DNA of 64,000 nt from a phage. The position numbers and the translations under genes were made by a program. Below the pieces are notes generated by a model that was not told where the DNA came from, did not search any database, and saw only the letters and a list, made by a program, of their open reading frames with translations. Shown piece after piece: positions 4,880-60,151 of the stretch. The DNA lies in the NCBI GenBank assembly GCA_024672315.1, contig GCA_024672315.1_4714.1. One strand, 5' to 3'. Position 1 is the stretch's first letter. Each line of letters starts with the position of its first letter.

Positions 4880-5155
4880 TTATTTCGAGGTTAACCACGA
4901 TTCAATTGTGGTGAGTTTGCTTCTCAGTACGCGCCAACTAGGGTGTGGTGGGATCACAGCGCCATTGTCGATTACGGTTAGCTGAACCTGGTACTTCTGT
5001 TGCATACGTGCTACCGTGTCGCTTATCGAGAGGAAAAGCTGGTAACGTTCATATGCCGTCAGTTCACTGTCCTGTTGAACTGCGTTGGCTGCTAACGTAA
5101 TTTCGCGTAAGTCCTTTGCATCCACAGAGACGGTAATGAGTTTATATTGACTCAT
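4880..5155 (-). CDS. hypothetical protein (91 aa)
   Basis: ORF with AAGGA RBS 6 nt upstream of ATG; convergent with previous gene across hairpin 4828-4862. Confidence 0.6.
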   Translation of the reverse strand: MSQYKLITVSVDAKDLREITLAANAVQQDSELTAYERYQLFLSISDTVARMQQKYQVQLTVIDNGAVIPPHPSWRVLRSKLTTIESWLTSK

Positions 5156-5216: not shown

Positions 5217-7775
5217 TTACTGCTCATCACGTTCCAACAGATACTCGGAAGCGGTAATACCGTTTACCGTACGCACTGCTTTCAGACGAGTATCATCACT
5301 CAGAATCACGGTAACAGATTGCAGACCTTTTACTTTGGTTTCGAAGGTCTTGAACACCTGATCCAGCATACGAGCAATGCTTGGGTTGGTTGCAGCCGAT
5401 GCGTGAGTGTAACCGCTCTGGTTCAGCTTCAGAATCTTGGCGTTGGTCGGTACGCGAACAACAACATGCGGACGCATCGCGAATACGCTGTGATTGAACC
5501 AGTAAGCATCGTTGCTATCTTCGTCGGTAACGATGTCTGGATTAACACGCATATCCTCGATAGCCGCATCCGCCAAACGACGTTCGATTTCATCGGCGTC
5601 CAGAGAGCCATCTTTCTCCAGTTCTGCACGATACTCACTCATGGCGACCAGATGACGCTCACGATTCGCTGCAGATTTTTCGTGAGCGGCTTTCAGGTAG
5701 TCATGCATGTTGTACAGTTCAGCCATGGAAAGACGAATGTTCCATTGACCTTCGCCATCACGATTGCAGTAGAGACACTTCAGCATGTTGACCCAGGTGT
5801 AGTAGCAATTGGAGAATTCATCTTCAATGAACTTCTGGTCCATTTTAAGATCGTGAATCAGCCAACCGGACAGTTCTCCGATATCATCAACGAAGCTAGA
5901 GATGGTGGTTTCAGAGAAGTTCTTCGGTACGATACGTTTGATCAGCTTATTGACGTCTTTGGTCATGCTATCGTTCAGGAAATGCCAGATACGCAGAGGA
6001 ATGACATCTCGATACTGTTGCATGATCTGACGATAAGCTTTGATATCGTCGCTACGACCTTTATCAATAGACAACGCATCCAGGAATTCATGGATTGCAT
6101 CCAGCTCCTTGTCGGTATAGGTTCCCAGATAGGAATTGACCGTAGCCAGGAATGCTAATGCGTCGTTTTGGTTGACGTCGGTGTTGGTCTGCTGAATGAT
6201 TGCCACTGAAGCTTTGGTTTCAGCATCCTCAACGCTTGACGCTGCGATTGCGTCGGTGACGGTAAACAGTTTCATTTCGCGCTGCTCGCCGACAACGATT
6301 GGTTCGCGTTGAACCGGTTTGTTAAGGCTAACACGAACAACTTCTGCTTGCGCGATGCGATCCAGTTTTGCCATTTCCTGCTCTGCCATACGACGAGCGG
6401 TTGGATCTGATTCAAGTTCGATGTATTCCACTTCTTCCTCCGTGAGGGATGTAATGTCAACAATGGTTTCATGAAGAATTCCGTTTTCGTCGATACGTGC
6501 CCGACGAGCGAAGTGTCTGAAGTCATACAACGTCGGCCAACGACTATTAGGTGCAAAGTCTTTGGCTTTCAGACGCATCTGCATAAATTCTTCATGTTGA
6601 ACAACACGACCGTAACGCTTAGCATCTTCGGTCGCATCAATTGGATTAACGGTCTTTGTTACCGTAGCAGAACGAGCCGTACGAACGGGTTCCGGTTTCA
6701 CCTGCGCAGGTTCAGGTTGAACGGGTTTCTGCTGCCCAGCCTTAACATGCCATTCTGGCTCTTCGTACTGTTCAGCAAACTGTTCAGCCGCTGCAAAGAT
6801 ATCGTTGATACCACCAATATCTCCTTCAGGATTTGTCGAGTAAATCCGTGGTTGTGGTGCCTCGTAACGCGGCGCTGTAGCAGCAGGTGCATCATCAACG
6901 ATAGGATCGTCATCACCAACATCATACAAACGGTTGAACGCACAATCCTTCGAATCGATGTACGATGGCGCTTGTGGTTGAACAACCGTCGGCCGAGGTT
7001 GTGCGCCGTATCCTGGCGTTGTTGGAGCCATACCACGCATAACTGCCGGATTAGGCTGGTATTGCGGTTGCGGATAGGTTCCACCATACATGGCGTACGC
7101 TGGCTGTTGTGGTTGACCGTACCCGCCACTAACCATCGCGCTTGCTTGCGGGCCACGATAAGTCATCCCCATCTGCATCACCTGCTGCTTCAAACCACGT
7201 GACTTCTGCGCGATTTGTGCCAGGCTCCCGCTTTTATTCAGCTGCGTGTACTTATTCGCGGCTTCCGGGTTAATGCGTGATAATTCAATCGCGCGATAAT
7301 ATTCCGGGTACTGATTCGGTTCAAAGAGCCACGTTACAAGATGATACAGCGCAACTGTGCTCACGGCAGCAGAGACGATCTGGTCGTCGGACGCGTTCTG
7401 CGGCATCGGGTTGATGTAAGAGAACACGTTCCAACAACAGTCTTCAACAAGCGATTCCATCATCATATCGTTATTGGTATAACGTGCGACGAATTCGGTT
7501 TGTATTTTGTCTTGCTGAGCGAAGTCTTTCAGGACATTAAAGATAGCTTGACGGATTTTGACGATCGTTGCTTCTTGGGTGATGAAGTTATAGTTCTGCT
7601 GATATGAGGGTTGTTGGTATTGTGGTGGTTGATAGGCGTTATTCGGATATGCGCCGTACGGCGATTGCTGATACTGTTGCTGACGAACCTGTTCAGCCGC
7701 ATAATTAACCGTGCTCGTATAAGGGTTTTCGCTATAGCCCATTTGTTGATACATGTTGTTACTGCCATTATACAT
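5217..7775 (-). CDS. hypothetical protein (852 aa) with Q/Y/N/P/G-rich low-complexity N-terminal and internal regions
   Basis: Long ORF, AAGGAT RBS 8 nt upstream of ATG; N-terminus MYNGSNNMYQQMGYSENPY...QPPQYQQPSYQQNYNF and internal GGYGQPQQPAYAMYGGTYPQPQYQPNP segments. Confidence 0.8.
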   Translation of the reverse strand: MYNGSNNMYQQMGYSENPYTSTVNYAAEQVRQQQYQQSPYGAYPNNAYQPPQYQQPSYQQNYNFITQEATIVKIRQAIFNVLKDFAQQDKIQTEFVARYTNNDMMMESLVEDCCWNVFSYINPMPQNASDDQIVSAAVSTVALYHLVTWLFEPNQYPEYYRAIELSRINPEAANKYTQLNKSGSLAQIAQKSRGLKQQVMQMGMTYRGPQASAMVSGGYGQPQQPAYAMYGGTYPQPQYQPNPAVMRGMAPTTPGYGAQPRPTVVQPQAPSYIDSKDCAFNRLYDVGDDDPIVDDAPAATAPRYEAPQPRIYSTNPEGDIGGINDIFAAAEQFAEQYEEPEWHVKAGQQKPVQPEPAQVKPEPVRTARSATVTKTVNPIDATEDAKRYGRVVQHEEFMQMRLKAKDFAPNSRWPTLYDFRHFARRARIDENGILHETIVDITSLTEEEVEYIELESDPTARRMAEQEMAKLDRIAQAEVVRVSLNKPVQREPIVVGEQREMKLFTVTDAIAASSVEDAETKASVAIIQQTNTDVNQNDALAFLATVNSYLGTYTDKELDAIHEFLDALSIDKGRSDDIKAYRQIMQQYRDVIPLRIWHFLNDSMTKDVNKLIKRIVPKNFSETTISSFVDDIGELSGWLIHDLKMDQKFIEDEFSNCYYTWVNMLKCLYCNRDGEGQWNIRLSMAELYNMHDYLKAAHEKSAANRERHLVAMSEYRAELEKDGSLDADEIERRLADAAIEDMRVNPDIVTDEDSNDAYWFNHSVFAMRPHVVVRVPTNAKILKLNQSGYTHASAATNPSIARMLDQVFKTFETKVKGLQSVTVILSDDTRLKAVRTVNGITASEYLLERDEQ

Positions 7776-7809: not shown

Positions 7810-9609
7810 TCAATCGATTATGTCGTGATCGTTAATTTCTACAATTTCTTCATCGAATCGACCGACGTCTTTCTTCAAGCCTGCATTGGTTGCTGCAACG
7901 TCATTTGCAATTTGTGGAGTAATGATTAACCGACCACGCTCGTCGATAGGTGCGTACATACTGAACTTCTGACGTCCGGTTGGTTCGGAGTGCGGAAGAT
8001 TCAGATAGCTTGCACAGAACGGGATGGAACCACTAACCAAACGACTCTCGTCAGCCAATGCAGCACCGCCTGCATTTTGGCTCTGGAGAACAACATGTGT
8101 GCTCACTTTGAACAGCATGCAATCACCAGGTGACTGAATCGATGTTGCCACTTTCTCACGTTTATCACGATTGCTCTGGATATTGAGAATCGCTTCCGTT
8201 GCAACTTGATTTCGCAACGCCTTCTGTACATCGCGATTGGTCATCTCTTTACGGTTGTTCTGTCGTTTACCACGTTCTGTGGTTTTAAGATGGAACCCCA
8301 GTTTAAAGATGCTCTTACGCACATCCTCCATGACATATTCCAACACCATCAGTTCCTTACCGAACATCGTCGTGGTATCAACACGACTCATTTCGATAGT
8401 AACATTATCAATCAGATACGCCATAAATTCGTAGAAGTCGTCGCAAGGAATATTTTCCTGTTTGAACTTCTTCTGTTGAATCTCGTCAACGTAAAGATCG
8501 AGACTGTCGATGTGGTGGTTTACATCACGCAACAAACGCGCATCCGCATTGTTGTTATTAAAGATAATCAAACCGAGTAATGTACGCCAATGGTCTGGCG
8601 CATTCGCGAACTCTTCAACCGGATAGTCTTCCGGAAAACGATCGTAATAACGGTCGATGAGATATAAGAACGCACCGACAAGGCCAAGAACAATACGTTC
8701 CGTGCCTCCACGTCTTACAGCGATTTGAATATCAGGATGTTTATAACGTACAGCGCTAGCGCTACGGCTTTTACCGCTTTTGCTGATACTAAAGCCTTTA
8801 GGAATAACCCCCATGGTGCGATAGATTACCCATTGGTCGCGCGGAAAATCACGTTCAGCAAGGTTCCGTCCGGTTACGGCTTCGACACCTGCAAAACGTC
8901 GGAAACACTCACCCACCCCGTACTTCGCAAAGAGATAGTGACCCAGTGTGGTTACGCTGGTGTGGTTGATGTTGTCACCGTTCACTTTACTTTGTTTGGT
9001 AAGATGATAGATTTGCGACCAGGGTAATGACAGGTAATGACGATAATCGATACCGGTCGGTGTATCATTGCTCAGGAACTGATACGGTGTACGTTTAACC
9101 GTGATTTTGTCACGCGGAAGCATGATGAACGCCATGTCTTTCGTGTAACTGATTACCGGGTCAGCGAGCACCGCACTGAGAATGAAGTTCGCACCACGTA
9201 GACGCATTTTACCACCCTGACCTACCGCGGGTAATAGGAGAGGGTGTCGGATAATGCAGTAGTCCTTTCCGGGTTCACGACGGTCACCTGATTCCATCGC
9301 GCCGTACCAGCGGAATTCTAGCATCACCATAAACACATCGGAAGGCGCAAGGTCGAAGGTCAGCTTACCGCTATCCTTCCCTTTGGTTTTCTTTCCTCCG
9401 CTTAAGTAGTGGAACTGTTCGCGGGCCATACAGCGACGCAGGCCATGATACACCAGATCCTTAGGTAAACTATCTTTGCTGTTCCGCCAAAGACGATCAA
9501 CATAGGACTCAACATCTTGCATCTTATCGACGACGATGTTGCGTGCTATCTTCTCGTTCATCTTCGGTGCAAGCTCAGCGACAGCTTTGCAGAATCTAGG
9601 ATCCATCAC
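7810..9609 (-). CDS. hypothetical protein (599 aa)
   Basis: Long ORF; strong AAGGAG RBS 6 nt upstream of ATG at 9609. Confidence 0.8.
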   Translation of the reverse strand: MMDPRFCKAVAELAPKMNEKIARNIVVDKMQDVESYVDRLWRNSKDSLPKDLVYHGLRRCMAREQFHYLSGGKKTKGKDSGKLTFDLAPSDVFMVMLEFRWYGAMESGDRREPGKDYCIIRHPLLLPAVGQGGKMRLRGANFILSAVLADPVISYTKDMAFIMLPRDKITVKRTPYQFLSNDTPTGIDYRHYLSLPWSQIYHLTKQSKVNGDNINHTSVTTLGHYLFAKYGVGECFRRFAGVEAVTGRNLAERDFPRDQWVIYRTMGVIPKGFSISKSGKSRSASAVRYKHPDIQIAVRRGGTERIVLGLVGAFLYLIDRYYDRFPEDYPVEEFANAPDHWRTLLGLIIFNNNNADARLLRDVNHHIDSLDLYVDEIQQKKFKQENIPCDDFYEFMAYLIDNVTIEMSRVDTTTMFGKELMVLEYVMEDVRKSIFKLGFHLKTTERGKRQNNRKEMTNRDVQKALRNQVATEAILNIQSNRDKREKVATSIQSPGDCMLFKVSTHVVLQSQNAGGAALADESRLVSGSIPFCASYLNLPHSEPTGRQKFSMYAPIDERGRLIITPQIANDVAATNAGLKKDVGRFDEEIVEINDHDIID

Positions 9610-9645: not shown

Positions 9646-11082
9646 TTACTTTTTCGATGACGCCTTCTCAAGAATCTTGAAAAAGGTCATACCTATACCG
9701 ACAACGGCCGCAGTTATACTCGCAGCGGCTTTCCAAACATCGACGTTACGTTGACGTCGCGCTTCTTCCGCTTCACGTTGTCTTTTTGCCTCTTCATCAC
9801 GTCGGCGTATCTCGGCAGCAAACTCGTCGTGCTTACGTTTGGATTCTTCGTCTCGACGACGAAGTTCAGCGACGAATTCTTCATGTTTGCGTTTAGCCTC
9901 GTCATCACGACGTTTTAAATCAGCTTGATAATCTTCGTGTATTTGTTTACGTAGATCATCTTGACGTTTCATTTCGGCTTGGTGTTGTTCCATCCTACGT
10001 TTTTGTTCGTCTTTAAGCTGATCGAGTTCGGCTTTATGTTGTTCATCGCGCAGCTTTGCGTCGGCGCGATGCGCCTCATGCATCTGCGCGATAACTGCCT
10101 TGTGTTCATCCGCCATACGTCGCATTTCAGCCATCACCCCTTTAAGGGTTTCTTCTGATGCCTTACGTTCGTAGCTACGCTGGTCGAAATCATTTTTGTA
10201 GGCTTCTTTTTGGATGGGGTCGCGCCAATGCAATGCCGATTCACGTGTCGGAAAAACATTGTACTTCCACATCTCTTTTTCCAAATCTTCGACCGGTACG
10301 AAGATGGAGTCATTATTCCCGAAGGTAACCAACATACCTGGCGCGCCTGCTCCATTCGTTGGTTTTATTTCGAACGCTTTCCCCAGCACGTTAACCCATA
10401 AGCTATACGGATTATGAAAGTCGGGTGGCGTCCAATGGATAGTGAGTTGCGTTCCGAGAATTCGGAAACCCTCTGTTTTTCCCGTCAAGCTCCGCGCGCA
10501 CGTTGCGATGTAGGGGTGATCAATCCCTTTCGTAACGTGGTCTGCGCTTTTGTATTCTCCTTTAACTTTTACGATTGCCACGTTGATTTGCGCGACATAA
10601 GCGGGTTGATTAAAGTTCAACGTGTTGAGGTCAATTTGACATATTTCATCCAGCGTATCGTACCAGTCTTGCTGGTCTAATAGGCGCGGCATTTTCTCGG
10701 TGTTAACAATACGACGGATATGCGGTTTCCTTATCGCGTAACCTGTGCCGTTTTTAACACGGAGTATATCCCGACGTCTACCCGCGTAGACGAAGTTTCT
10801 GAATGCACCATTCGCATTAGATACGTCATGGCTGTCAACTATTACAGGACTACGAAATTTTGAACGTCGTACGATCCTGAATGTATTGCCGTCCTCAACC
10901 CTACCAGGAATGTACTGGAACATATTGTCGGAGGTGATAACCAACACGGTATGGCCAGATTCATTAATACATGCCCATCCTAATTCCAGGTCATATAACG
11001 GTTCAGCATAACCGTCAATGCGATAAGCGTGCGTACCATCCCACGGTTCGAACGCCGTATCACATATTGGCATGGAGGGCAT
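9646..11082 (-). CDS. tail-anchored membrane protein with long E/R/K-rich charged helix (478 aa)
   Basis: ATG at 11082 preceded by GGAGG (6-nt spacer); ORF-track TTG start at 11088 rejected. C-terminal 130 aa of near-tandem charged repeats (ELRRRDEESKRKHDEF / EIRRRDEEAKRQ) followed by a hydrophobic segment AAASITAAVVGIGMTFFKIL and a basic tail. Confidence 0.75.
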   Translation of the reverse strand: MPSMPICDTAFEPWDGTHAYRIDGYAEPLYDLELGWACINESGHTVLVITSDNMFQYIPGRVEDGNTFRIVRRSKFRSPVIVDSHDVSNANGAFRNFVYAGRRRDILRVKNGTGYAIRKPHIRRIVNTEKMPRLLDQQDWYDTLDEICQIDLNTLNFNQPAYVAQINVAIVKVKGEYKSADHVTKGIDHPYIATCARSLTGKTEGFRILGTQLTIHWTPPDFHNPYSLWVNVLGKAFEIKPTNGAGAPGMLVTFGNNDSIFVPVEDLEKEMWKYNVFPTRESALHWRDPIQKEAYKNDFDQRSYERKASEETLKGVMAEMRRMADEHKAVIAQMHEAHRADAKLRDEQHKAELDQLKDEQKRRMEQHQAEMKRQDDLRKQIHEDYQADLKRRDDEAKRKHEEFVAELRRRDEESKRKHDEFAAEIRRRDEEAKRQREAEEARRQRNVDVWKAAASITAAVVGIGMTFFKILEKASSKK

Positions 11083-11231
11083 CGTCAACCTCCATCTGAT
11101 TGAAAACTATCACGCATAACGCATTTCCCTTTTCTTGTTCTTATCGAGCCGACAGCCGACGGTTTCAGTATCGTTCCTAGCGCGAGAACGACCTTACGTG
11201 TTGTCTATGCCTTATTCATCGCAGGCGTCTG

Positions 11232-11257
11232 TCACCTAGGTAATGTAAGCGTCAAAT
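11232..11257 (-). promoter_or_regulatory. conserved AT-rich motif (partial copy), candidate phage promoter
   Basis: TCACCTAGGTAATGTAAGCGTCAAA shares the TCACCTAGGTAATGTA core with the 17.7-kb and 57.4-kb copies; upstream of gene 9646-11082. Confidence 0.3.
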
Positions 11258-11290
11258 TTTTTCTATTCGCAACGATAAACGGCATAGAAA

Positions 11291-11320
11291 CCTCCCCCAA
11301 CCCTTACGGGCTGAGGGAGG
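11291..11320. terminator. GC-rich stem-loop, repeat-family member
   Basis: CCTCCCCCAACCC-TTAC-GGGCTGAGGGAGG (13-bp stem, 2 mismatches), about 100 nt downstream of the capsid-candidate stop; flanks GCATAGAA / TTATG. Confidence 0.4.
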
Positions 11321-11419
11321 CTGACTTATGTATCACGGTGCCGGATGAATGTCCGGTGCAATGAAACCATCCGCAACGTTGTCGTCAAGAATATCATCCA
11401 ACGAAGCAGCTACGGTAGT

Positions 11420-13642
11420 TCAGTTAGTCTGAACAGGCAGCTTGATGTTTTCAGTGTAGACCTTACGCAGGTTCACAACGTTAATCAGACCCAGCAGCGG
11501 GCAGTTGTTAACGAAGCGGCAGCGCGGCTGAACCATGGTTTCTTTAGAAACCTGACCGTTACGGGTAACCTGAGCAACAGATACCAGTTCCGGTACATAC
11601 AGGAACATACCGAAGGTCAGCGGATCCGGAGAACCCTGGATACCACGAGACAGGGTCACGAAGATCTTATCACGCAGCATGACGTTCGGGTTATCTACAA
11701 CCACGAAGTTGAAGCTTACACCAACGGTACGGAAATCACCATCGGTCTGCAGGAACTGCGGGATGTAGTTGTCAGTTGCTACTACGCAACGCGGTTTCTC
11801 ATCAGCGTTGGAAGACAGCAGCTGCAGAGCTGGCTGATAACCAGACTCGGAGTACATGCGGTATGCCATTTCACGAATCACGTTCATGATCGCAGCAGAC
11901 ACTTCAGCACGACGTTCTGCAGTGGTGGTACCCTGAACAGATTTCTCCAGGTCCAGATTGATTTCTTCGAACCACGGACGGATCAGGTAACGACCGAAAC
12001 CTTCGATCTGGATGTCGCCGAACTGACGGAAGCGAGAGGTCGCAACCGCTTTCAGTGCGTCTTTGTAGCTGAACAGTTTCTCAACCATCAGGTTGTCGAA
12101 ACGTGCGTTAGCAGCCTGGATCAGAACGTCCAGGTCAGCAGCGTTTTCTTCCCAATCCAGCGGACGAGGAATGGAGAACGGAGCCAGCAGGCCGATTGCG
12201 TAACGTTCTTGCTTCATGTTGAAGTCAAGGTGCTTACCGCGTTCACGACGGTTGCTGTTGTTACGACGGATACGCAGTTCGTAACCAACCAGTTTGAAGC
12301 TCAGGTCTTCAGCCAGCTGTTTGAACTCTTCGCTCTTACGCGGTTGTTCGATGTTGTCCTGATCAACCAGGCGATACAGTTCAGCGTTAGCGCCGTTAAC
12401 ACGCAGACCGGCTTTCTCTACGTTGGAAGAACCGTAAACTTCGATTGCCAGCTGAGCAGCGGATTTCGAATCGATGATGTCCTGCAGCGCTTCAGCTCGT
12501 GCACCTTTAACGTCAACGGTGTGCTCATCAACGAAGATGGAGTGGGTGTCGAACGCCAGGGTCATTTTGCGGAAGTCGCCTTCCAGGGATTTCTGGAAAC
12601 CGTTGGTGATCAGACCAGATACGTCGAACGGTACGTAAGAGGTTTTGCTGTGCTTGGTAGATTTGATTTCCACCAGGATTTTGGTCAGCGTGATCTGAGC
12701 ATCCAGCGCATCGGTGTTGTCGCTGTAACCGTTAGCCAGAATGCTATCGTCTTCAGCGATACCGATCATGTCGATCAGTTTATCAACAGCCAGGTAAGAC
12801 GTTTTATAAGTTACGCCTTTAATTTCGATGTCGCGCGGAGCAACGATAGTTTTGTCAACGAAGTACTGCGCGTTAGCATCGTCAGCACGATAGATCGGAT
12901 GCAGATCGGTCACGTCGTTGGACAGAACGTCGTTGTACATGAACGCATCCAGCAGCGGACGACGTACCCAATCAGCCGGAGTACCGTCAGCGTTACGGCG
13001 CAGGTGGTTGAACACCAGCGGACGACGGAAAGATACATCGTAACCGATCTGGTTCGGAGCCAGAACGATGGTGTTGTACAGTTCGTTACCCATGCGGCTC
13101 AGACGAGAAGCCTTCACGTTGAACACAACGGAGTACGGCATCATGTCACGCAGTTCTTTCTGGTCGTAGGACAGCTGAACCAGTTCTTCAGATTCGCAAC
13201 CGCAGGAATCAGCAGCCATCATGACGAAGTTAGAGCTGTCAACTTCACGGCCAGACGGAGTGGTGCTGATGTTCATGGAACGTGCTTGTTTAGCATATTC
13301 CACCGGGTTGCCATGAGCCAGCATGATCAGTGCTGCTGCACGAGCCTGCTGTGCGTTCATGGTGAACAGCTGTTCTTCAATACGCTGCTTCTCTTCCGGA
13401 GTGGTGGTTTCGAAGCCCAGCATGGACAGAACCGGTTCTTCTGCTTTACGGATGTCGCTGCTGAAGCTCTTAACATCCATTTCGTTAACCAGTTTGTCCA
13501 TGGATTTGAAATCAACCTTAGAAGCAGATTCCATAGACAGGAAGGTGTTCTCCAGACCTTTGTCTGCTGGTTTGCTACCATTAGCGGTCAGGAACTGGCG
13601 AGTGGCCGCGACCTGTTGGCTAAGAAGGGTTTTATCATTCAT
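11420..13642 (-). CDS. candidate major capsid protein (phiKZ-like, 740 aa)
   Basis: Strongest codon bias in the window (CTG/CGT/GGT/AAC/TTC-rich), implying very high expression; size matches the ~740-750 aa major capsid proteins of phiKZ-like phages (from memory); AAGGA RBS; embedded in head-protein context. Sequence identity to a capsid protein not verified. Confidence 0.55.
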   Translation of the reverse strand: MNDKTLLSQQVAATRQFLTANGSKPADKGLENTFLSMESASKVDFKSMDKLVNEMDVKSFSSDIRKAEEPVLSMLGFETTTPEEKQRIEEQLFTMNAQQARAAALIMLAHGNPVEYAKQARSMNISTTPSGREVDSSNFVMMAADSCGCESEELVQLSYDQKELRDMMPYSVVFNVKASRLSRMGNELYNTIVLAPNQIGYDVSFRRPLVFNHLRRNADGTPADWVRRPLLDAFMYNDVLSNDVTDLHPIYRADDANAQYFVDKTIVAPRDIEIKGVTYKTSYLAVDKLIDMIGIAEDDSILANGYSDNTDALDAQITLTKILVEIKSTKHSKTSYVPFDVSGLITNGFQKSLEGDFRKMTLAFDTHSIFVDEHTVDVKGARAEALQDIIDSKSAAQLAIEVYGSSNVEKAGLRVNGANAELYRLVDQDNIEQPRKSEEFKQLAEDLSFKLVGYELRIRRNNSNRRERGKHLDFNMKQERYAIGLLAPFSIPRPLDWEENAADLDVLIQAANARFDNLMVEKLFSYKDALKAVATSRFRQFGDIQIEGFGRYLIRPWFEEINLDLEKSVQGTTTAERRAEVSAAIMNVIREMAYRMYSESGYQPALQLLSSNADEKPRCVVATDNYIPQFLQTDGDFRTVGVSFNFVVVDNPNVMLRDKIFVTLSRGIQGSPDPLTFGMFLYVPELVSVAQVTRNGQVSKETMVQPRCRFVNNCPLLGLINVVNLRKVYTENIKLPVQTN

Positions 13643-16062: not shown

Positions 16063-16090
16063 ACGCAAAAAAAAAAAAGATTGTGCGGTT

Positions 16091-16122
16091 CCCTCCTCCA
16101 ACCCGTAAGGGAAGGAGGAGGG
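16091..16122. terminator. GC-rich stem-loop, repeat-family member
   Basis: CCCTCCTCCAACCC-GTAA-GGGAAGGAGGAGGG between convergent genes; A12 run at 16067-16078; TTATG downstream. Confidence 0.45.
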
Positions 16123-16138
16123 GTTATGACCGCTTTGA

Positions 16139-16465
16139 TTAACTTATTGTCATGAATTCATTAGGTGAAAATTTCCAGCCGTTCTCAGTGAGAAGCGTGT
16201 TGAGTTTCGCTGCAACGATAAGCCATGCGTGCATGGCTGTTACGTCGTATTGGCGATTCACTCGACGTTGGTTTTCGATATTGATTTGCTCCTGTTCAGT
16301 GATGTTTGGATAAAGTGCGATAGCGCTGGGTTTACCCAATGCGCTAGTCATCACCGCCGTACATTCACTGATAATGTTGTTTAAGTGGTAGTTATACACC
16401 GTTCCACGCATGACGCGATGACGGCATTCGATAATAGCGTCGTAAATGATTTCTCGAGTAATCAT
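16139..16465 (-). CDS. hypothetical protein (108 aa)
   Basis: ORF in minus-strand run, 6 nt downstream of upstream gene stop; no clear RBS. Confidence 0.55.
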   Translation of the reverse strand: MITREIIYDAIIECRHRVMRGTVYNYHLNNIISECTAVMTSALGKPSAIALYPNITEQEQINIENQRRVNRQYDVTAMHAWLIVAAKLNTLLTENGWKFSPNEFMTIS

Positions 16466-16471
16466 GATAAT

Positions 16472-16873
16472 TTAAAACATACGGTCGTTTTTAGCACGGG
16501 CATCCATTACCAGATCGTAGATGCCTGCGGTTCGTAAGCACTCTTCGTAGTAACGATGTGTGCCTTCCTCAGCCATCCACGATAGCCCACGACTATCCGC
16601 AACAATAACCAGTTTGTTATTGTTGAACGCACACACCACACGGTAGGTCGCGTTGTTATTCGGATCGCGAGTGATAAGTTCGTAGACGCCGTTAACAGGT
16701 TTACTGAATTCACCATTTAACGGAACGAGTTCGGTAGTACCTTCAGCAAACGTTACGTTGATCGGTGATGGATCTTTAGCGATAACAGTATATTCCACAT
16801 TGTGTTCTTTACTGGTCATAATACCGAAGTAAGAACTGACAGGGGAACGCGGTACACTAAGAATATTAAACAT
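16472..16873 (-). CDS. hypothetical protein (133 aa)
   Basis: ORF with AAGAGG RBS upstream of ATG. Confidence 0.65.
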   Translation of the reverse strand: MFNILSVPRSPVSSYFGIMTSKEHNVEYTVIAKDPSPINVTFAEGTTELVPLNGEFSKPVNGVYELITRDPNNNATYRVVCAFNNNKLVIVADSRGLSWMAEEGTHRYYEECLRTAGIYDLVMDARAKNDRMF

Positions 16874-16942
16874 AAATGTTGTCCTCTTAATTGGATTTAG
16901 ATTGTTGAGTATGTGATTGGAAATGAAAACGTTGTTTCGGTT

Positions 16943-17512
16943 TTAGACGATGAGTGACCAGGTGGTAAGCACCCCGCTTGCGAATTCGAGCTTAAGACGT
17001 TTACCGATAAGTTGTTGCTGAATCATCTTCTCGGTGATACGTCGATCATGCTGAACCGCTTTATCAAACGCTTCTTTCGCTTCAGCTTGGTAGAAGTTCG
17101 TTTCTTCGTTTTCGTCGATCTCTTCGAGAGCATCGTCGTCGATGTCAGCAAGTTTCACTCGACCGTTTTCATCAGGTTGTTCTGCAGGTTCATTGTCATA
17201 CGGCGTGTCTTTTGTTGGTGCGACACGATGTTGCAACTCGACCTGTGTTAACATGATCTCCATCTCACCATCGATAGGAATGATTTCATCGGCGCTGCCG
17301 TTTTCGGTCAGCTCCCGACTTTCCAGTAATGTCGTCGTAACAGAGAACACCTCTTCAACAGGAACCTCATCATCGTCGATGGTGTTAACCGTGTTGCTGG
17401 TAACTTCAGCAACGACCATCAAATCAAATGCGTGAGGATCGCCTGGCATTTTGATTCCTGGAAGTTTGTTGAGGTACCAAGGATCAAGAATCATGATTTC
17501 TGGATTAAACAT
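16943..17512 (-). CDS. hypothetical acidic protein (189 aa)
   Basis: ORF with ATG; strongly acidic composition; preceded by 300-nt intergenic region carrying the conserved promoter-like motif and hairpin. Confidence 0.65.
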   Translation of the reverse strand: MFNPEIMILDPWYLNKLPGIKMPGDPHAFDLMVVAEVTSNTVNTIDDDEVPVEEVFSVTTTLLESRELTENGSADEIIPIDGEMEIMLTQVELQHRVAPTKDTPYDNEPAEQPDENGRVKLADIDDDALEEIDENEETNFYQAEAKEAFDKAVQHDRRITEKMIQQQLIGKRLKLEFASGVLTTWSLIV

Positions 17513-17708
17513 CGTATTTTTACCTTTCTATGTTAGGTGGATTGCGGATAGAAGAATCAATGCATAGATTGATCGTTCTATGTTAGAAATTATTGCTGAA
17601 CTGGTTATGGTTATAACGCGTGTTTTCGTATGCTGACGGGTCGCGTATTAATAAGGCCATGACTGTATCCTCGATTATTAAGAGAAATTTACAACGGTAA
17701 CAGTAACC

Positions 17709-17747
17709 GCTCTTATCACCTAGGTAATGTAGTCGTGAAATAAACTG
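17709..17747 (-). promoter_or_regulatory. conserved AT-rich motif, candidate phage promoter
   Basis: Plus-strand GCTCTTATCACCTAGGTAATGTAGTCGTGAAATAAACTG; minus-strand reading contains TACATTACC; near-identical copies at 57427-57508 and partly at 11232-11257, each between a GC-rich hairpin and a downstream minus-strand gene. Confidence 0.35.
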
Positions 17748-17775
17748 GAGTAACGAGAAATAAGACAGCATAGAA

Positions 17776-17807
17776 CCCTCTCCCTTCCCTGATGGGTTGG
17801 GAGAGGG
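17776..17807. terminator. GC-rich stem-loop, repeat-family member
   Basis: CCCTCTCCCTTCCC-TGAT-GGGTTGGGAGAGGG; flanks GCATAGAA / ATATA; adjacent to conserved promoter-like motif 17709-17747. Confidence 0.4.
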
Positions 17808-17813
17808 AATATA

Positions 17814-18446
17814 TCACCAATGATCGAAGGAACCGGGAGCGTTACGAACGATCTCAACTTGGAAGGTTATTGGTACTGATGGCAATGAAACATATTCGCG
17901 TTGCGATAGCAGGACGTTGTCTTCTCGCTCATCGATGCGAGCAGAACCCGTCAGAAATTGGAACATAGCGACTTGAAGCTCATCGGTGAAACGGAGGTAC
18001 TCACCGATGTGTGGTGTTGCATCATATCGAATAAGTACGTTACCAAACCGTCGTGCGATATTTGGAGTATCTGTGAACGAAACAGGGAAATCCAAAGTCA
18101 TTCCCATCGTTTCACCTGGCTTCATTTTCCGAATCGACGCAATTGGCACGTCGAAGATATTCCATTCTTCTTTCATCGTGTCTGGAAACACACCGCGATA
18201 CAAGATGGTTTTTTGATGACGATGAACGGGTTGTAAACGGTCAACCAATATTTTCAAAGGTTTAAGTTCTTCAGCCAATTCATAATCTGCTTGGATGTTC
18301 CACTTTGCCGCAAGTTCCATTAGGTTGGGATACGCGCTATATTTATTGACGATAGCCCAGTTAACATTACGCAAATCGATAGGAAGGAATTTGATAATTT
18401 CCTTGTTGAATATCCATTGGTTTAATTTCTTAATCTCCGAAAGCAT
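17814..18446 (-). CDS. hypothetical protein (about 210 aa)
   Basis: Start moved to ATG at 18446 (MLSEIKK...), 18 nt after the upstream gene stop; ORF-track start 18575 would overlap upstream gene by 113 nt. Confidence 0.6.
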   Translation of the reverse strand: MLSEIKKLNQWIFNKEIIKFLPIDLRNVNWAIVNKYSAYPNLMELAAKWNIQADYELAEELKPLKILVDRLQPVHRHQKTILYRGVFPDTMKEEWNIFDVPIASIRKMKPGETMGMTLDFPVSFTDTPNIARRFGNVLIRYDATPHIGEYLRFTDELQVAMFQFLTGSARIDEREDNVLLSQREYVSLPSVPITFQVEIVRNAPGSFDHW

Positions 18447-18462
18447 GATGTACTCACTACAG

Positions 18463-19830
18463 CTAAACGGTTGGGCGAATGGTGTTGTCTTTTTCTGGTG
18501 CAAGCCATAACGTGACCGTACCATGGCATGTCCACTGTGGTTCACGTACAGAAGAACCTGCCATCGTAACAGCACAATCGGTACGCATGATAACCCCGTA
18601 TGCTTCGCAGAGATTGTTATCCTGCATCCACACGACTTTAGCAGGCATGCCGGGATACAACAAATCCATGTTTGCGTATTCCCACACCAACTGCATTGTT
18701 CTACCGCGTAATCCAGCAGTATTACTTAATTCACGCCATCGGTTATCGGTTACGCGTCCCATCCCTTTCGCCACCTTCACGTTATCGCTACGTTCTTCAG
18801 TTACGTACTCGCTAACGTTTACAGTACGGCTGATTATCGTATCGCCCCCTTTTGATAATGTCATTCCCTGACTCATCTGACTTGCCGAAACAAAACGCCC
18901 ACCCGCATTACCTAACAACGAAGCCGCGTTATTGATGTCGCTTACCGACGCCCCTCTCGTACATGCAATTTCCACGTATTTGTCACGGTTGATCCAAGTC
19001 TTGTCCATGCCCGGAAACATATCGGCAGGATAGTTGTAAAAGATAGCCGTGCGCCGACCGTCAGAGAAACGGGTTTCGTCGTAGAGAGGATAAATATACA
19101 GATACGGAGATTGATAATAACAACCGACGTCCGCCGAATAAATACCGACCTGGTTCTGGATTTTGTCTACGAGATCCATTGCGTTGGTGCCGTGCGGAAG
19201 AATAAGCAACTTGAACAGGTTGTCGTTATTCGGTGCAACAATGTCTACACCCTGCATTTTGAATCCGGTGTCGGCTTCAACCGCAGAAAGTATCTTGCTG
19301 AATTCGAGTCGTAACACATCCAGCACTTTCGACCCGGTATAGTTTTCACCGGTTTCTGATTGCATGAAGCTTTCAAGAACAGGATCGAACAGTTGAAATT
19401 GAAGATCGACCATTTGTTCGTAGTCTTTCTTCGAAGAATCGGTTGCGGTACGTTCGTCGTTAGCAGACATACGACTGTCCACGGTTGTTAAACAAACCGC
19501 CCGATAGACGTAAGCTTGCGCAGCATCGTCTACGGTTTGGCGTTGTCCGCGCATCAGGCTGTACGCCTGCACGATGATGCGCATTTTAAGTTGTTGTTGG
19601 TACGGTAAGATGTATTTTCCGTAACTGCCTGGCGGGAACTTTACAGAGATATAAAGTTCATCTCCTGCATTACGTTCATAGTCTCGATACGTGTGGACTT
19701 GAGTCACTAAAGGAACAGACACCGTCATTGACGGCGTGATTAATTCCGCGGTGACTTTATACGCAACAGCAACTGCTTCCTGCGCAAATGTACCGATGTA
19801 CCGTCCTAACGGCGTCTGTTTGTAATCCAT
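18463..19830 (-). CDS. hypothetical structural-module protein (455 aa)
   Basis: Long ORF; start 2 nt after upstream stop; part of tightly coupled minus-strand operon 17814-23679. Confidence 0.8.
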   Translation of the reverse strand: MDYKQTPLGRYIGTFAQEAVAVAYKVTAELITPSMTVSVPLVTQVHTYRDYERNAGDELYISVKFPPGSYGKYILPYQQQLKMRIIVQAYSLMRGQRQTVDDAAQAYVYRAVCLTTVDSRMSANDERTATDSSKKDYEQMVDLQFQLFDPVLESFMQSETGENYTGSKVLDVLRLEFSKILSAVEADTGFKMQGVDIVAPNNDNLFKLLILPHGTNAMDLVDKIQNQVGIYSADVGCYYQSPYLYIYPLYDETRFSDGRRTAIFYNYPADMFPGMDKTWINRDKYVEIACTRGASVSDINNAASLLGNAGGRFVSASQMSQGMTLSKGGDTIISRTVNVSEYVTEERSDNVKVAKGMGRVTDNRWRELSNTAGLRGRTMQLVWEYANMDLLYPGMPAKVVWMQDNNLCEAYGVIMRTDCAVTMAGSSVREPQWTCHGTVTLWLAPEKDNTIRPTV

Positions 19831-29561: not shown

Positions 29562-29667
29562 TTGGGACTCCTACGTAGGAAAATCTTGGCGGGTGATCAT
29601 GTCCGCCATTTACCTTCTGAACCGTTGATTCAGAAGTCAAAAGATAACCGGATACCAACGCCATAAA

Positions 29668-29699
29668 CCTTCCTCCAACCCAACAGGGAAGGAGGAAGG
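29668..29699. terminator. GC-rich stem-loop, repeat-family member
   Basis: CCTTCCTCCAACCC-AACA-GGGAAGGAGGAAGG between tandem minus-strand paralog genes. Confidence 0.4.
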
Positions 29700-29709
29700 G
29701 ATATAGTGG

Positions 29710-32349: not shown

Positions 32350-32373
32350 AAGATAAACCTGAGCGGCATAGAA

Positions 32374-32405
32374 CCCTCTCCCAACCCGTCAGGGAAGGGA
32401 GAGGG
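32374..32405. terminator. GC-rich stem-loop, repeat-family member
   Basis: CCCTCTCCCAACCC-GTCA-GGGAAGGGAGAGGG immediately after the highly expressed 32428-33750 gene; flanks GCATAGAA / AATATG. Confidence 0.45.
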
Positions 32406-32427
32406 AATATGTCAGTTTATTAACTGA

Positions 32428-40627: not shown

Positions 40628-40648
40628 AACAAAATAGCATGAGCATAA

Positions 40649-40680
40649 CCCTCCTCCAACCCAACAGGGAAGGAGGAGGG
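40649..40680. terminator. GC-rich stem-loop, repeat-family member
   Basis: CCCTCCTCCAACCC-AACA-GGGAAGGAGGAGGG between convergent genes; flanks GCATAA / AATATG. Confidence 0.45.
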
Positions 40681-40689
40681 AATATGCTG

Positions 40690-48130: not shown

Positions 48131-48351
48131 TGTACACTCTCTAAATTTACGTAAATTTAAGGGCTAATGGATCGGCTGGCCGCACCAATCACAATGTGTC
48201 CGCTGCTATGCAACGGCATTCATAGAAATACCTTTTGACGGTAACATCACCGTTCATACCCCAAGCAATAAGAGTGGTCGGTTAAAAACAACAGAACGTG
48301 GGGATGATATAGAAAATCACCTTTTAACACTTATTACGAGTTTATCAAGCC

Positions 48352-49851: not shown

Positions 49852-49940
49852 CCTTCGTTCTGTAAAAGTTTACTTCATGTAAGAATTGTGTGCGGCATAA
49901 GAGAGGCCGATACATCTAGATATTACATGAGGTTTACGAG

Positions 49941-51131: not shown

Positions 51132-51170
51132 CAGGTCCCCCTACTTGTAATGAGTGGGTGAACTCTCTTT

Positions 51171-51944: not shown

Positions 51945-51950
51945 TGAGGT

Positions 51951-57426: not shown

Positions 57427-57508
57427 GCTCTTATCACTAAGGTAATGCTTACGCGTCGCGTTCATGATGCATGGCATCATGAAGGTAATATAGTCGTGAA
57501 ATAAACTG
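57427..57508 (-). promoter_or_regulatory. conserved AT-rich motif (split copy), candidate phage promoter
   Basis: Same motif as 17709-17747, split by a 33-nt insertion carrying two small palindromes (ACGCGTCGCGT; TCATGATGC-ATG-GCATCATGA); minus-strand reading contains exact TATATTAC. Confidence 0.35.
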
Positions 57509-57540
57509 CGTTAACACGAAATAAAAACAGCATAGAAACC

Positions 57541-57584
57541 TCCTCCCCCATCCTTCAAGAGGACGGTGGGAAGAGGGAGAGATT
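57541..57584. terminator. GC-rich stem-loop, degenerate repeat-family member
   Basis: CCTCCTCCCCCA...GGTGGGAAGAGG imperfect hairpin; flank GCATAGAA upstream; adjacent to conserved promoter-like motif. Confidence 0.3.
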
Positions 57585-58849: not shown

Positions 58850-60151
58850 TTAACTAATATAAAGTTCAGGATCGTAAGGCGCTAACGATACACTGGCGTT
58901 ATGCATTGCTTTCATCATAGTGTTCATGAAAACGTTGTTTACACCGGTGATCTCTGCCCCGATCGCATCTGGGGTTGGAGCCATCGCGTTACCGCAACAG
59001 GTAGCACAGTATTCCAATGGGCCTGCTTTACAACGTTGAGGATCACGTAACTTGATGGTTTGTCCTTCCAAGGAAGCGAGTAATTCAGCATCGATAAGTT
59101 TAAGAGCCGCGCCGTCGATCATGTAACGGCCGACAAGCAGCTTATCTTTGATGTGGTCGCGGTTTACCGTGAAAAGAATATGCTCGTGGGTACCGCAGTC
59201 GTCCATCGTGATTTTAAGGTTCTGTGTCGCACGTTGTGATTCTTTCGCCGTCTGTCCAGCTAAAGCGGTCAACGCACCACGTGAGAACGAACCGGCACGT
59301 GCACTGTTGTTGTACTCCGCCCAATGGTCGACACGCATCCCTTCGGCCAGGCTGTGTGTGATAACGTTACGTTTACCGGGGTCAACGAAGTCGGCTTCAA
59401 CCCCCATCATGATGTGCGTTTTCTTTCGAGTATTACCGAAACTCTTGCCTGGGTTAATATAGAACCCTTCCGACTCATCGCCCTTAAAGGATTCCTTATC
59501 CATTTTGGTTAGCGTGGCTTCGAGTTTGATCAGTTCTTCAGGCGTGAACTTACCTTCCTCTTGTAAGCGCGCCAACTCTTTATCACGATAGGCAATAATA
59601 TCATCATCGACCGTTAACGCTTTATCACTCATTGACGGGACAATTAAACGGTTGATAGCGGTTAATGCGCTGATATTGTTGGTGAATTTCTTCACTTCGC
59701 TTGCGTACAACGGACCAATAGGACGTTCATTAGGATCGGGTATTCCCTCTTCGGGATCGTCCGCTACGCGTGGCGCAATCAGTGACTCCAGTGTGCCGCT
59801 GGTCAACCGTCCTGCCTGATATTCAATCTGAATACCGAAAGCATCATAAAGGACGTACATATTGAACAACGCTTCACCGAAGGTTGTGGTGGTTGTGTTC
59901 TTAACCGACGGTAAATCGCCAGGTGCGAGCTCCAACGGCTCCCAGAAACTCAACAAGGGTTTTGTTGGCTCGGTTTCCCATTGGTGTTCTTCACCGTCGA
60001 TGGTAACCGTAACGACGTTACCTTGACGACGTAATTTAGGCTGATACTTCTCAGCGCCGCCTTCCGTAAAAGCAAATGCGTCGTTAATCCATTCAAGATA
60101 TCGGTAGTGCCCTTCACGCATCGCGTAAAGGAAATATTCACGAGGTGTCAT
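58850..60151 (-). CDS. hypothetical protein (433 aa) with C-terminal cysteine cluster
   Basis: AAGGAG RBS 7 nt upstream of ATG; C-terminal cluster CKAGPLEYCATCCGN. Confidence 0.75.
   Translation of the reverse strand: MTPREYFLYAMREGHYRYLEWINDAFAFTEGGAEKYQPKLRRQGNVVTVTIDGEEHQWETEPTKPLLSFWEPLELAPGDLPSVKNTTTTTFGEALFNMYVLYDAFGIQIEYQAGRLTSGTLESLIAPRVADDPEEGIPDPNERPIGPLYASEVKKFTNNISALTAINRLIVPSMSDKALTVDDDIIAYRDKELARLQEEGKFTPEELIKLEATLTKMDKESFKGDESEGFYINPGKSFGNTRKKTHIMMGVEADFVDPGKRNVITHSLAEGMRVDHWAEYNNSARAGSFSRGALTALAGQTAKESQRATQNLKITMDDCGTHEHILFTVNRDHIKDKLLVGRYMIDGAALKLIDAELLASLEGQTIKLRDPQRCKAGPLEYCATCCGNAMAPTPDAIGAEITGVNNVFMNTMMKAMHNASVSLAPYDPELYIS

What the first reader, a model, noticed from the sequence alone, without database searches (positions are those of the whole stretch)
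17709..17747. Conserved 40-nt AT-rich motif next to hairpins, with one copy split by a palindromic insertion
Seen: GCTCTTATCACCTAGGTAATGTAGTCGTGAAATAAACTG at 17709-17747 recurs at 57427-57508 and partly at 11232-11257, each time between a GC-rich hairpin and a downstream minus-strand gene. The 57.4-kb copy is interrupted by a 33-nt insertion made of two small palindromes. Read on the minus strand the motif contains TACATTACC or exact TATATTAC. Shorter ATTAC motifs also precede the plus-strand genes at 48337-48344 and 49916-49923. Inference: a promoter for a phage-encoded RNA polymerase; an AT-rich TATATTAC-type early promoter has been described for phiKZ (from memory).
Basis: partly seen in the sequence, partly recalled or inferred. 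Interest (0 to 1): 0.55.

Follow-up and report, generated by a model that had tools for sequence, protein, structure and literature searches.

The report
Early promoters of a Goslar-like jumbo phage
The repeated 40-nt motif is almost certainly the early promoter read by the RNA polymerase that this giant E. coli phage carries in its virion, a known kind of signal in phiKZ-like phages but not yet described for this group; one copy also carries a small palindromic insert that varies between related phages.

Summary
The window comes from a close relative (92-98% identity) of the nucleus-forming E. coli jumbo phage Goslar. The motif is real. Three minus-strand copies (11.2, 17.7, 57.4 kb) fit the consensus (A/T-rich)-TTTCACGrCTAyATTACyTAGGTGA, with 0.05 copies expected by chance.

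A weight matrix finds exactly 3 sites in the window and 12 in Goslar. All are intergenic and point towards the downstream gene, one of which encodes the nuclear-shell protein chimallin.

The motif matches published early-promoter consensuses of phiKZ-like phages. It aligns with the region upstream of phiKZ gene 054, which has an experimentally mapped early start site. The 11.2-kb copy sits in the same position as its phiKZ counterpart: capsid gene, hairpin, promoter, then an operon encoding the homologue of PHIKZ123, a subunit of the non-virion RNA polymerase.

No transcript ends were mapped.

Corrections:
- The insertion is 43 nt, including an 8-nt direct repeat, not 33 nt.
- The plus-strand "ATTAC" sites are no better than chance.

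The 43-nt palindromic module is absent from Goslar. It recurs in a different early promoter in other Goslar-like phages.

Verdict: a new member of a known kind; moderate interest.

The parts
17709..17760 (-). Early promoter copy 2. Core TTTCACGACTACATTAC at 17724-17740; downstream box CTAGGTGA; inferred +1 at G 17717. Upstream of a 25-aa ORF (ATG 17660) and the gp046-gp044 orthologues (16139-17512).
   Evidence: 57.2 bits in the weight-matrix scan; exact core match; sequence read.
57470..57521 (-). Early promoter copy 3, the upstream, complete half of the 'split' copy. Core TTTCACGACTATATTAC at 57485-57501; downstream box CTTCATGA; inferred +1 at G 57478. Drives the gp075 orthologue (56941-57366) and a cluster of about 10 small ORFan genes down to 51951.
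   Evidence: 49.0 bits. The same CTTCATGA downstream variant is native to the Goslar gp021 and gp200 promoters.
57439..57481 (-). 43-nt promoter-proximal palindromic module: CATGATGCCATGCATCATGAACGCGACGCGTAAGCATTACCTT. It is inserted after ATTACCTT and ends in a second ATTACCTT. Palindrome 1 is at 57461-57483 and palindrome 2 at 57451-57461.
   Evidence: Clean 43-nt indel against Goslar; present in OGZS01000006.1 (alignment A1). The palindrome is unique in the window.
57427..57446 (-). Displaced original downstream half of promoter copy 3: ATTACCTTAGTGATAAGAGC, i.e. the original start region and the start of the GAUAAGA...UCUUAUC leader hairpin.
   Evidence: Identical to the uninterrupted Goslar promoter; leader fold.
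11225..11276 (-). Early promoter copy 1, A-tract subclass: GAAAAAATTTGACGCTTACATTACCTAGGTGA. Core at 11240-11256; inferred +1 at G 11233. Drives gp040 (9646-11088), the PHIKZ123 homologue (7810-9609), gp038 (5217-7775) and gp037 (4880-5155).
   Evidence: 51.8 bits. The downstream gene is a PHIKZ123 (nvRNAP subunit) homologue, E=5.8e-41. phiKZ has the same hairpin-plus-promoter between its capsid gene and PHIKZ121-123.
17768..17807 (-). Terminator-like hairpin CCCTCTCCC..GGGAGAGGG plus the conserved 3' flank TTCTATGC. It ends the upstream operon (the 210-aa ORF and the gp048 orthologue).
   Evidence: -24.6 kcal/mol, z -2.8; repeat families D4/D7.
57530..57576 (-). Terminator-like hairpin plus the TTCTATGC flank, downstream of the gp076 orthologue (57583-57984).
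   Evidence: -28.4 kcal/mol, z -3.85.
11282..11322 (-). Terminator-like hairpin plus the TTCTATGC flank, immediately downstream of the major capsid gene (11420-13642).
   Evidence: -30.6 kcal/mol, z -6.8.
7810..9609 (-). Gene for the homologue of PHIKZ123, a non-virion RNA polymerase subunit and an expected early gene product. It lies downstream of promoter copy 1.
   Evidence: phmmer against PDB 7OGP chain E: E=5.8e-41, residues 1-560. PHROG 2943 'polymerase', E=7e-120.
58850..60151 (-). Orthologue of Goslar gp78, a subunit of the virion RNA polymerase, the enzyme proposed to read these promoters.
   Evidence: Co-linear with Goslar at 92-98% identity. The gp78/196/205/207/210 assignment as vRNAP comes from virion mass spectrometry (bioRxiv 10.64898/2026.04.21.720040).

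Best explanation
[quoted passage not shown] The promoter has four parts: an A/T-rich stretch, TTTCAC at about -22, TAyATTAC centred near -10, and GTG with the last G as the inferred start. Each promoter sits just after a conserved GC-rich terminator hairpin. Read-through from the upstream, partly late, operon therefore stops, and a new early transcript starts 30-45 nt further on. Copy 1 expresses an operon that contains a subunit of the second (non-virion) polymerase. Copies 2 and 3 express clusters of small ORFan genes typical of early regions. In copy 3 a 43-nt palindromic module has been inserted right after the -10 box. The complete upstream promoter survives, with a downstream box (CTTCATGA) that other Goslar promoters use natively. 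The module lengthens the mRNA leader from 69 to 112 nt and adds hairpins to it. Shown here: the motif and its statistics, its genomic distribution, its homology to mapped phiKZ promoters, and the identity of the downstream polymerase gene. Inferred: the start position, the early timing, which polymerase reads it, and the effect of the module.
For: Chance excluded:
- 3 hits against 0.05 expected.
- The weight matrix gives 3 window sites at 49-57 bits and 12 Goslar sites at 33-57 bits, with nothing between 12 and 33 bits. The best score in 20 shuffles is 10 bits.

Context:
- All 15 sites are intergenic and co-oriented with the next gene, with leaders of 25-152 nt.

Family match:
- The motif fits the published consensuses N1M2 TTTCARRYAKATATTATYWAAGTGWA, 201phi2-1 TTTRARR_BTATATTACDWHDGTG, EL and phiKZ TATATTAC.
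- The architecture is an extended -10 box plus a T-rich element upstream of -19, centred about 10 nt before the start.

Orthology:
- Regions upstream of chimallin in phiKZ, PhiPA3, RAY, Proteus phage 10 and Goslar align as GAAAAAAATTTnAnnnnTATATTACnnnnGTG, starting about 65-110 nt before the annotated ATG.
- PHIKZ054 has a mapped early primary start site.
- phiKZ carries hairpin + AAAAAAAGTTTAAGATCTATATTAC between its capsid gene and PHIKZ121-123. The window carries the same arrangement before its PHIKZ123 homologue.

Logic:
- nvRNAP subunit genes are early genes transcribed by vRNAP.

Other evidence:
- More distant jumbo-phage contigs carry TTTCACGTCTATATTACTTGGGTGA about 50 nt before a gene.
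Against: - No transcript 5' ends, timing data or in-vitro transcription exist for Goslar or this phage. Neither the literature searches nor the GenBank annotation give promoters.
- Only 12 sites were found in Goslar, against 28-32 early promoters in phiKZ, so the class may be incompletely captured or split.
- In 201phi2-1 not all nvRNAP genes have an early promoter nearby.
- The leader of copy 1 is long (about 145 nt), whereas phiKZ leaders are typically 31-40 nt.
Confidence: 0.85

Rival explanations
1. The motif is a promoter, but for the non-virion RNA polymerase (middle or late class), or it is used by both enzymes.
For: The conserved hairpin flank contains TATG, the minimal phiKZ late element T-3ATG+1. 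PHIKZ054 has both an early and a middle start. AR9 has continuously expressed genes with dual promoters.
Against: The phiKZ middle motif is TACT at -22 after an A-rich repeat, and late promoters show only TATG. Neither resembles TTTCAC-N4-TAyATTAC. The TATG in the hairpin flank pairs with a 5' CATA and is better explained as part of a palindromic, bidirectional terminator.
Confidence: 0.06
2. The repeats are mainly recombination cassettes (like T4 PeSLs) or remnants of duplication. Their conservation would then reflect gene conversion rather than promoter function.
For: Copies 2 and 3 share about 85 nt, from the hairpin flank to +9. In the window, copy 2 has GATAAGAGC, as copy 3 does, where Goslar has GATAACAGC; this suggests gene conversion. 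A 651-nt gene insertion abuts the hairpin of copy 2. Extra cassettes occur in relatives (L012, L034).
Against: The core is conserved across five genera at orthologous positions where the flanks are unrelated. That argues for selection on function. Being a recombination hot spot and being a promoter are not mutually exclusive, as PeSLs show.
Confidence: 0.04
3. The motif is an operator or binding site for a phage or host DNA-binding protein, not an initiation site.
For: TCAC...GTGA forms a short dyad around the AT-rich core. Palindromes overlap the inferred start in 7 of 12 Goslar sites.
Against: The dyad is not conserved in the N1M2, OBP or 201phi2-1 consensuses. The palindromes differ in sequence from site to site, which fits a shared structure better than a single protein site. 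Homologous phiKZ sites have mapped starts.
Confidence: 0.03
4. The motif is a host sigma-70 promoter.
For: One weak 9-of-12 match (TTAACG-16-TATATT) overlaps copy 3.
Against: Copies 1 and 2 give no sigma-70-like match, and the count does not exceed shuffles. phiKZ-like phages develop independently of host RNA polymerase.
Confidence: 0.02

Closest known systems
phiKZ-type (Chimalliviridae) early promoters read by the virion RNA polymerase. There are 28-32 in phiKZ. Predicted consensuses exist for 201phi2-1, OBP, EL and N1M2.
   Same: AT-rich TAyATTAC box near -10, a T-rich/TTTnA element around -20, an A/T-rich stretch further upstream, and conserved GTG at the start. The sites are intergenic at operon starts. 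They occupy orthologous positions upstream of chimallin and of the PHIKZ121-123-type operon.
   Different: The Goslar-type consensus has its own fixed bases (TTTCACGrC, ACCTAGGTGA). Only 12 copies were detected per genome. No start sites have been mapped. One copy carries a 43-nt palindromic module.
Conserved-sequence terminator hairpins of phiKZ (61 sites) and 201phi2-1 (motif A, 59 sites).
   Same: A GC-rich CCCTCC...GGGAGGG hairpin with CATA/TATG-type flanks. The phiKZ terminator after the capsid gene reads CATAGGCCCTCCCTTCGGGGAGGGCTTTATG. There are at least 7 related copies in the window, some between convergent genes.
   Different: The stems are longer and two-tiered here. There is no canonical U-tract: the simple terminator scan finds none. 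Termination was not tested.
PeSL (promoter-early stem-loop) cassettes of T4-like phages (PMC2839356, PMC4122927).
   Same: A composite early-promoter plus stem-loop unit repeated in the genome. It sits next to ORFan genes and indels between close relatives. The stem-loops can lie just downstream of the -10 box.
   Different: The PeSL promoter is sigma-70-like and read by host polymerase; here the promoter is of the vRNAP type. Recombination or mini-circle formation at these cassettes has not been shown.

Membership tests
Chimalliviridae vRNAP early promoter | Conserved AT-rich box of about 8-10 nt (TATATTAC-like) centred about 10 nt upstream of the start | tested here: met
   TACATTAC or TATATTAC is present in all 3 window sites and all 12 Goslar sites. 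The position relative to the start is inferred only.
Chimalliviridae vRNAP early promoter | T-rich/TTTnA element upstream of about -19, with an A/T-rich region at -20 to -30 | tested here: met
   TTTCAC or TTTGAC lies 4 nt upstream of the box, preceded by TTTA, AAAAAA or ACATT. This matches the published extended consensuses.
Chimalliviridae vRNAP early promoter | Intergenic, co-oriented with the downstream operon, at positions orthologous to mapped early promoters | tested here: met
   15 of 15 sites are intergenic and co-oriented. The chimallin upstream regions align across 5 genera. The capsid-gene to PHIKZ121-123 gap of phiKZ matches the window's 11.2-kb copy.
Chimalliviridae vRNAP early promoter | The genome encodes a multisubunit virion RNA polymerase | tested here: met
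   The window carries the orthologue of Goslar gp78, a vRNAP subunit identified by virion mass spectrometry.
Chimalliviridae vRNAP early promoter | A primary transcript 5' end 5-12 nt downstream, appearing immediately after infection and independent of host RNA polymerase and of protein synthesis | not testable with these tools
   No Goslar transcript-mapping data were found. Supplementary start-site tables for phiKZ and 201phi2-1 are not held.
PeSL-type mobile regulatory cassette | A composite of an early promoter and a stem-loop, repeated in the genome | tested here: met
   Hairpin + TTCTATGC + promoter occurs 3 times in the window. Palindromes overlap the inferred start in 7 of 12 Goslar promoters, against 15% in a random control.
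PeSL-type mobile regulatory cassette | The promoter is sigma-70-like and read by host RNA polymerase | tested here: not met
   No sigma-70 match above chance.
PeSL-type mobile regulatory cassette | Indels and gene swaps between close relatives are bounded by the cassettes (recombination between copies) | tested here: inconclusive
   One of four window-versus-Goslar indels (17813-18463) abuts a cassette hairpin. The others lie inside the ORFan cluster without a promoter copy.

The most novel reading that the evidence does not exclude
The 43-nt unit (a variable perfect palindrome plus the conserved GCGACGCGTAAGCGTTACCTT) may be a small self-propagating or recombination-spread module that targets the -10/+1 junction (TTACCTT) of vRNAP early promoters. 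It occurs at the gp075-type promoter in the window phage and in OGZS01000006.1. It occurs at the gp021-type promoter in three other contigs, once as two tandem units with different palindromes and a flipped loop. A diverged form sits in the Goslar gp200 promoter. If the palindromes work at the DNA level (cruciform or regulator binding) or as 5'-terminal RNA hairpins, the module would be a portable device for tuning early transcription or early-mRNA stability in nucleus-forming phages. Together with the terminator-promoter cassettes, it would be a PeSL-like engine of genome plasticity in jumbo phages.
Probability: 0.2. Interest if true: 0.6.

Novelty: new member of a known kind. Interest (0 to 1): 0.4.

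Why it matters
Goslar is the E. coli model for nucleus-forming phages, yet no promoter map was found for it. A defined early-promoter consensus has several uses.
- It predicts which genes are made inside the early infection vesicle: 12 sites in Goslar and 3 in this window, with inferred start points.
- It flags likely mis-annotated gene starts, for example gp047.
- It offers parts for engineering early expression.
- It shows that the capsid-terminator / early-promoter / nvRNAP-subunit arrangement is conserved from phiKZ to Goslar-like phages.

The polymorphic 43-nt module provides natural paired alleles for testing what promoter-proximal palindromes do.

Tried and rejected
- Plus-strand ATTAC sites at about 48.33 and 49.92 kb: rejected. 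They lack the flanking boxes and score below 12 bits, and the 8-mer is not enriched.
- Sigma-70 promoter: rejected.
- Canonical intrinsic terminator with a U-tract: the simple scan finds none. The hairpins are called terminator-like on the basis of stability, position and the phiKZ precedent.
- Known RNA families or tRNAs in the window: none.
- TATG in the hairpin flank as a late promoter: considered. It is more simply explained as one arm of the CATA...TATG extension of a palindromic terminator.
- N4-like hairpin promoter (TCAC...GTGA dyad): rejected, because the stem is only 4 bp with a 16-nt loop and is not conserved in related consensuses.
- Module as a second promoter: its CGCGAC box lies 8 nt rather than 3 nt from ATTACC, so this is unlikely.
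- Distant relatives of gp040 by single-protein search: only near-identical loci were found.
- Start-site tables of phiKZ and 201phi2-1, and the 2014 phiKZ paper: not held. The +1 position therefore rests on 'centred about -10'.
- The 210-aa inserted ORF: no credible Pfam, PADLOC or PDB match, only sub-threshold hits.

Full report
**1. What the window is**

The window is co-linear with Escherichia phage vB_EcoM_Goslar (NC_048170.1), a nucleus-forming jumbo phage. Identity is 92-98%, and window positions 1-64000 correspond to Goslar positions 32022 to about 93200. It is a distinct phage. It also differs from three other Goslar-like contigs found later: IMGVR_UViG_3300011560_000001, OGZS01000006.1 and OBVC01002253.1. 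The Goslar annotation lists terminators but no promoters.

**2. Checking the observation**

The quoted 39-mer lies exactly at 17709-17747, and the second copy spans 57427-57508. All copies read sensibly on the minus strand:
- 17.7 kb: CAGTTTATTTCACGACTACATTACCTAGGTGATAAGAGC
- 57.4 kb: the same sequence with TATATTAC, plus an insertion
- 11.2 kb: GAAAAAATTTGACGCTTACATTACCTAGGTGACAGAC

The statistics exclude chance:
- The 19-nt core with up to 3 mismatches gives 3 hits against 0.05 expected.
- A 52-column weight matrix built from Goslar sites scores the three window sites at 57.2, 49.0 and 51.8 bits. Nothing else in the window exceeds 12 bits, and the best of 20 shuffles is 10 bits.
- So the '11.2-kb partial copy' is a full site of a subclass with an A-tract.

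Each site follows a very stable GC-rich hairpin and precedes a minus-strand gene.

Two details of the finding needed correction:
- The interruption is a clean 43-nt indel relative to Goslar, not 33 nt.
- The short plus-strand 'ATTAC' motifs are slightly mis-located and lack the flanking boxes. The bare 8-mer is not enriched.

**3. What it is**

Scanning the whole Goslar genome gives 12 sites. All are on the minus strand, all are intergenic, and all point at the next gene: gp004, 021, 040, 047, 075, 105, 159, 175, 182, 200, 214 and gp246 (chimallin). The consensus is (A/T-rich)-TTTCACGrCTAyATTACyTAGGTGA.

This fits the early-promoter motifs tabulated for related phages in PMC7058600:
- N1M2: TTTCARRYAKATATTATYWAAGTGWA
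- OBP
- 201phi2-1: TTTRARR_BTATATTACDWHDGTG
- EL
- phiKZ: TATATTAC

It also fits the described architecture: an extended -10 box with a T-rich element upstream of -19, centred about 10 nt before the start (PMC7598289, PMC8244752, PMC11512511).

Two orthology tests go beyond resemblance.

*Test 1, the chimallin promoter.* The regions upstream of chimallin in phiKZ, PhiPA3, RAY, Proteus phage 10 and Goslar align as GAAAAAAATTTnAnnnnTATATTACnnnnGTG. The motif starts about 65-75 nt before the annotated start codon in four of them and about 110 nt before it in PhiPA3. PHIKZ054 has a dRNA-seq primary start with the early motif.

*Test 2, the capsid-gene gap.* The window gene at 7810-9609 is a full-length homologue of PHIKZ123, chain E of the phiKZ non-virion RNA polymerase structure 7OGP (E=5.8e-41).
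- In phiKZ the order is capsid gene PHIKZ120, a 197-nt gap, then PHIKZ121-122-123.
- That gap reads CATAGGCCCTCCCTTCGGGGAGGGCTTTATG...AAAAAAAGTTTAAGATCTATATTACAGTAATGATCATGATC.
- The window has the same three elements in the same order after its capsid gene: hairpin with CATA/TATG flanks, A-tract promoter, then the operon with the polymerase subunit.
- Genes for nvRNAP subunits are expected early genes transcribed by the virion enzyme (PMC13282480).
- The window also encodes the orthologue of vRNAP subunit gp78.

**4. How it most likely works**

After DNA and vRNAP are injected, the enzyme binds the TTTCAC / TAyATTAC elements. It initiates at the last G of GTG. This start is inferred: the box is reported as centred near -10, and -2 is conserved in 201phi2-1. 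The predicted starts are 11233, 17717 and 57478, giving leaders of about 145, 57 and 112 nt.

The hairpin immediately upstream belongs to a family with at least 7 members in the window. It resembles the conserved terminator motif reported for phiKZ and 201phi2-1. It would insulate each early unit from upstream transcription. Its flanks, 5' CATA and 3' TATG, pair with each other, and several copies sit between convergent genes. The conserved TATG is therefore better read as part of a two-way terminator than as a late promoter.

Copies 2 and 3 drive clusters of small ORFan genes, as early promoters do in 201phi2-1. The cluster below copy 3 holds three of the four indels that separate the window from Goslar.

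**5. The split copy**

Goslar's orthologous promoter is uninterrupted. In the window, 43 nt follow ATTACCTT and end in a second ATTACCTT: CATGATGCCATGCATCATGAACGCGACGCGTAAGCATTACCTT.

The upstream half remains a complete promoter. Its new downstream box, CTTCATGA, is the one used natively by the Goslar gp021 and gp200 promoters.

The same unit occurs elsewhere:
- at the gp075-type promoter of OGZS01000006.1 (L035);
- at the gp021-type promoter of IMGVR_3300011560 (L014), where Goslar has none (L024);
- in OBVC01002253.1 (L034);
- twice in tandem in OGZS (L033). There the first unit has a different perfect palindrome (CCTGTTTGAC-TTAT-GTCAAACAGG), and the second has its loop flipped (ATG instead of CAT);
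- as a diverged form in the Goslar gp200 promoter.

The unit is rare otherwise. Its palindromes vary in sequence while their symmetry is kept, and the 20-nt tail is conserved.

More generally, 7 of 12 Goslar promoters have a stem of at least 4 bp starting at the inferred +1, against 15% of random GA-starting 36-mers (binomial p about 7e-4, a post-hoc test). The phiKZ sites show the same feature.

Plausible roles for the module are:
- 5'-terminal RNA hairpins that stabilise early mRNAs;
- promoter-proximal attenuators of the kind seen in phiKZ 5'UTRs;
- DNA-level palindromes.

None of these was tested. The module's spread could reflect gene conversion between paralogous promoters or a small mobile unit.

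**6. Comparison with what is known, and novelty**

The motif is a member of the known class of chimallivirus vRNAP early promoters. Every sequence-level and positional criterion was met. The defining biochemical criterion, an early drug-resistant start site, could not be tested.

The hairpin-plus-promoter composite works like T4-type PeSL cassettes (PMC2839356, PMC4122927). It is not a member of that family, because the promoter is not sigma-70-like.

No published Goslar promoter consensus was found. The finding is therefore a new member of a known kind. The 43-nt module is an undescribed minor variant worth a bench test.

**7. Verdict**

- Interest is moderate, 0.4. A specialist would expect such promoters. 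The Goslar-specific consensus, the conserved capsid-terminator / promoter / nvRNAP arrangement and the polymorphic palindromic module are useful rather than surprising.

Noticed in passing
window 17813-18463: A 651-nt insertion relative to Goslar lies exactly between the stop codon of the gp048 orthologue and the cassette hairpin. It encodes a 210-aa ORFan (ATG 18446, stop at 17814-17816). Its YRG...SFTD...QRE pattern loosely recalls ADP-ribosyltransferase R-S-E motifs; that is my reading only. Pfam, PADLOC and PDB sequence searches gave nothing credible.
   Followed up: partly
window 16068-16128, 29645-29705, 32351-32411, 40626-40686, plus 11282-11330, 17768-17816, 57525-57585: A family of at least 7 related GC-rich hairpins (CCCTCYTCCAACCC-loop-GGGAAGGAGGAGGG) has conserved, mutually complementary flanks (CATA...TATG). 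Several lie between convergent genes, so they are probably bidirectional terminators. The same design follows the phiKZ capsid gene (L041 8590-8630).
   Followed up: partly
window 17583-17771 (Goslar gp047 orthologue): The annotated 62-aa gene starts at an ATG inside the terminator flank, upstream of the predicted promoter and start (17717). If the promoter is real, only a 25-aa ORF (ATG 17660, preceded by GAGGA) or no gene is expressed from it before gp046.
   Followed up: no
Goslar promoters; phiKZ L037 and L041: Palindromes or hairpins begin at or just before the inferred +1 in most early promoters: 7 of 12 in Goslar against 15% expected. They are also seen at the phiKZ P054 and P121-type sites. 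In the window's copy 2 the hairpin is broken by two non-compensatory changes that make it identical to copy 3 (GATAAGAGC), which suggests gene conversion.
   Followed up: partly
L033 8745-8833 versus L035 10094-10140 (both from OGZS01000006.1): Within one genome the TTCATGATGC/GCATCATGAA palindrome occurs with loop ATG at one promoter and loop CAT at another (a flip/flop). At L033 two modules with different palindromes sit in tandem.
   Followed up: partly
window 53083-54723, 55168-55722, 42393-43178: There are further indels or replacements relative to Goslar. Two lie in the small-ORFan cluster driven by promoter copy 3. This cluster includes a 130-nt internal repeat (53351-53480 / 53783-53912, 70% identity), indicating paralogous neighbouring genes.
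   Followed up: no
window 51132-51950: An ORF-poor stretch of about 820 nt lies between the NUMOD1/HNH endonuclease gene (49941-51131, +) and the gp070 orthologue. It is also unannotated in Goslar. It has no Rfam match at gathering threshold, and its function is unknown.
   Followed up: no
L007 8063-8114, L011 9474-9525, L016 1094-1145, L018 8060-8111: Four other 214-228-kb viral contigs carry AAGATACAGTTAGTTTCACGTCTATATTACTTGGGTGATTAAGAC about 50 nt upstream of a gene. L007 also has an EL-like TTTTAAACCTACATTAT. These appear to be further chimalliviruses with the same promoter core.
   Followed up: partly
Goslar 203903-203921 (+), outside the window: GTGACGCGTAAGCGTTATA, a near match to the conserved tail of the 43-nt module, lies between gp211 and gp212 on the opposite strand. 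It could be a relic or the source of the module.
   Followed up: no
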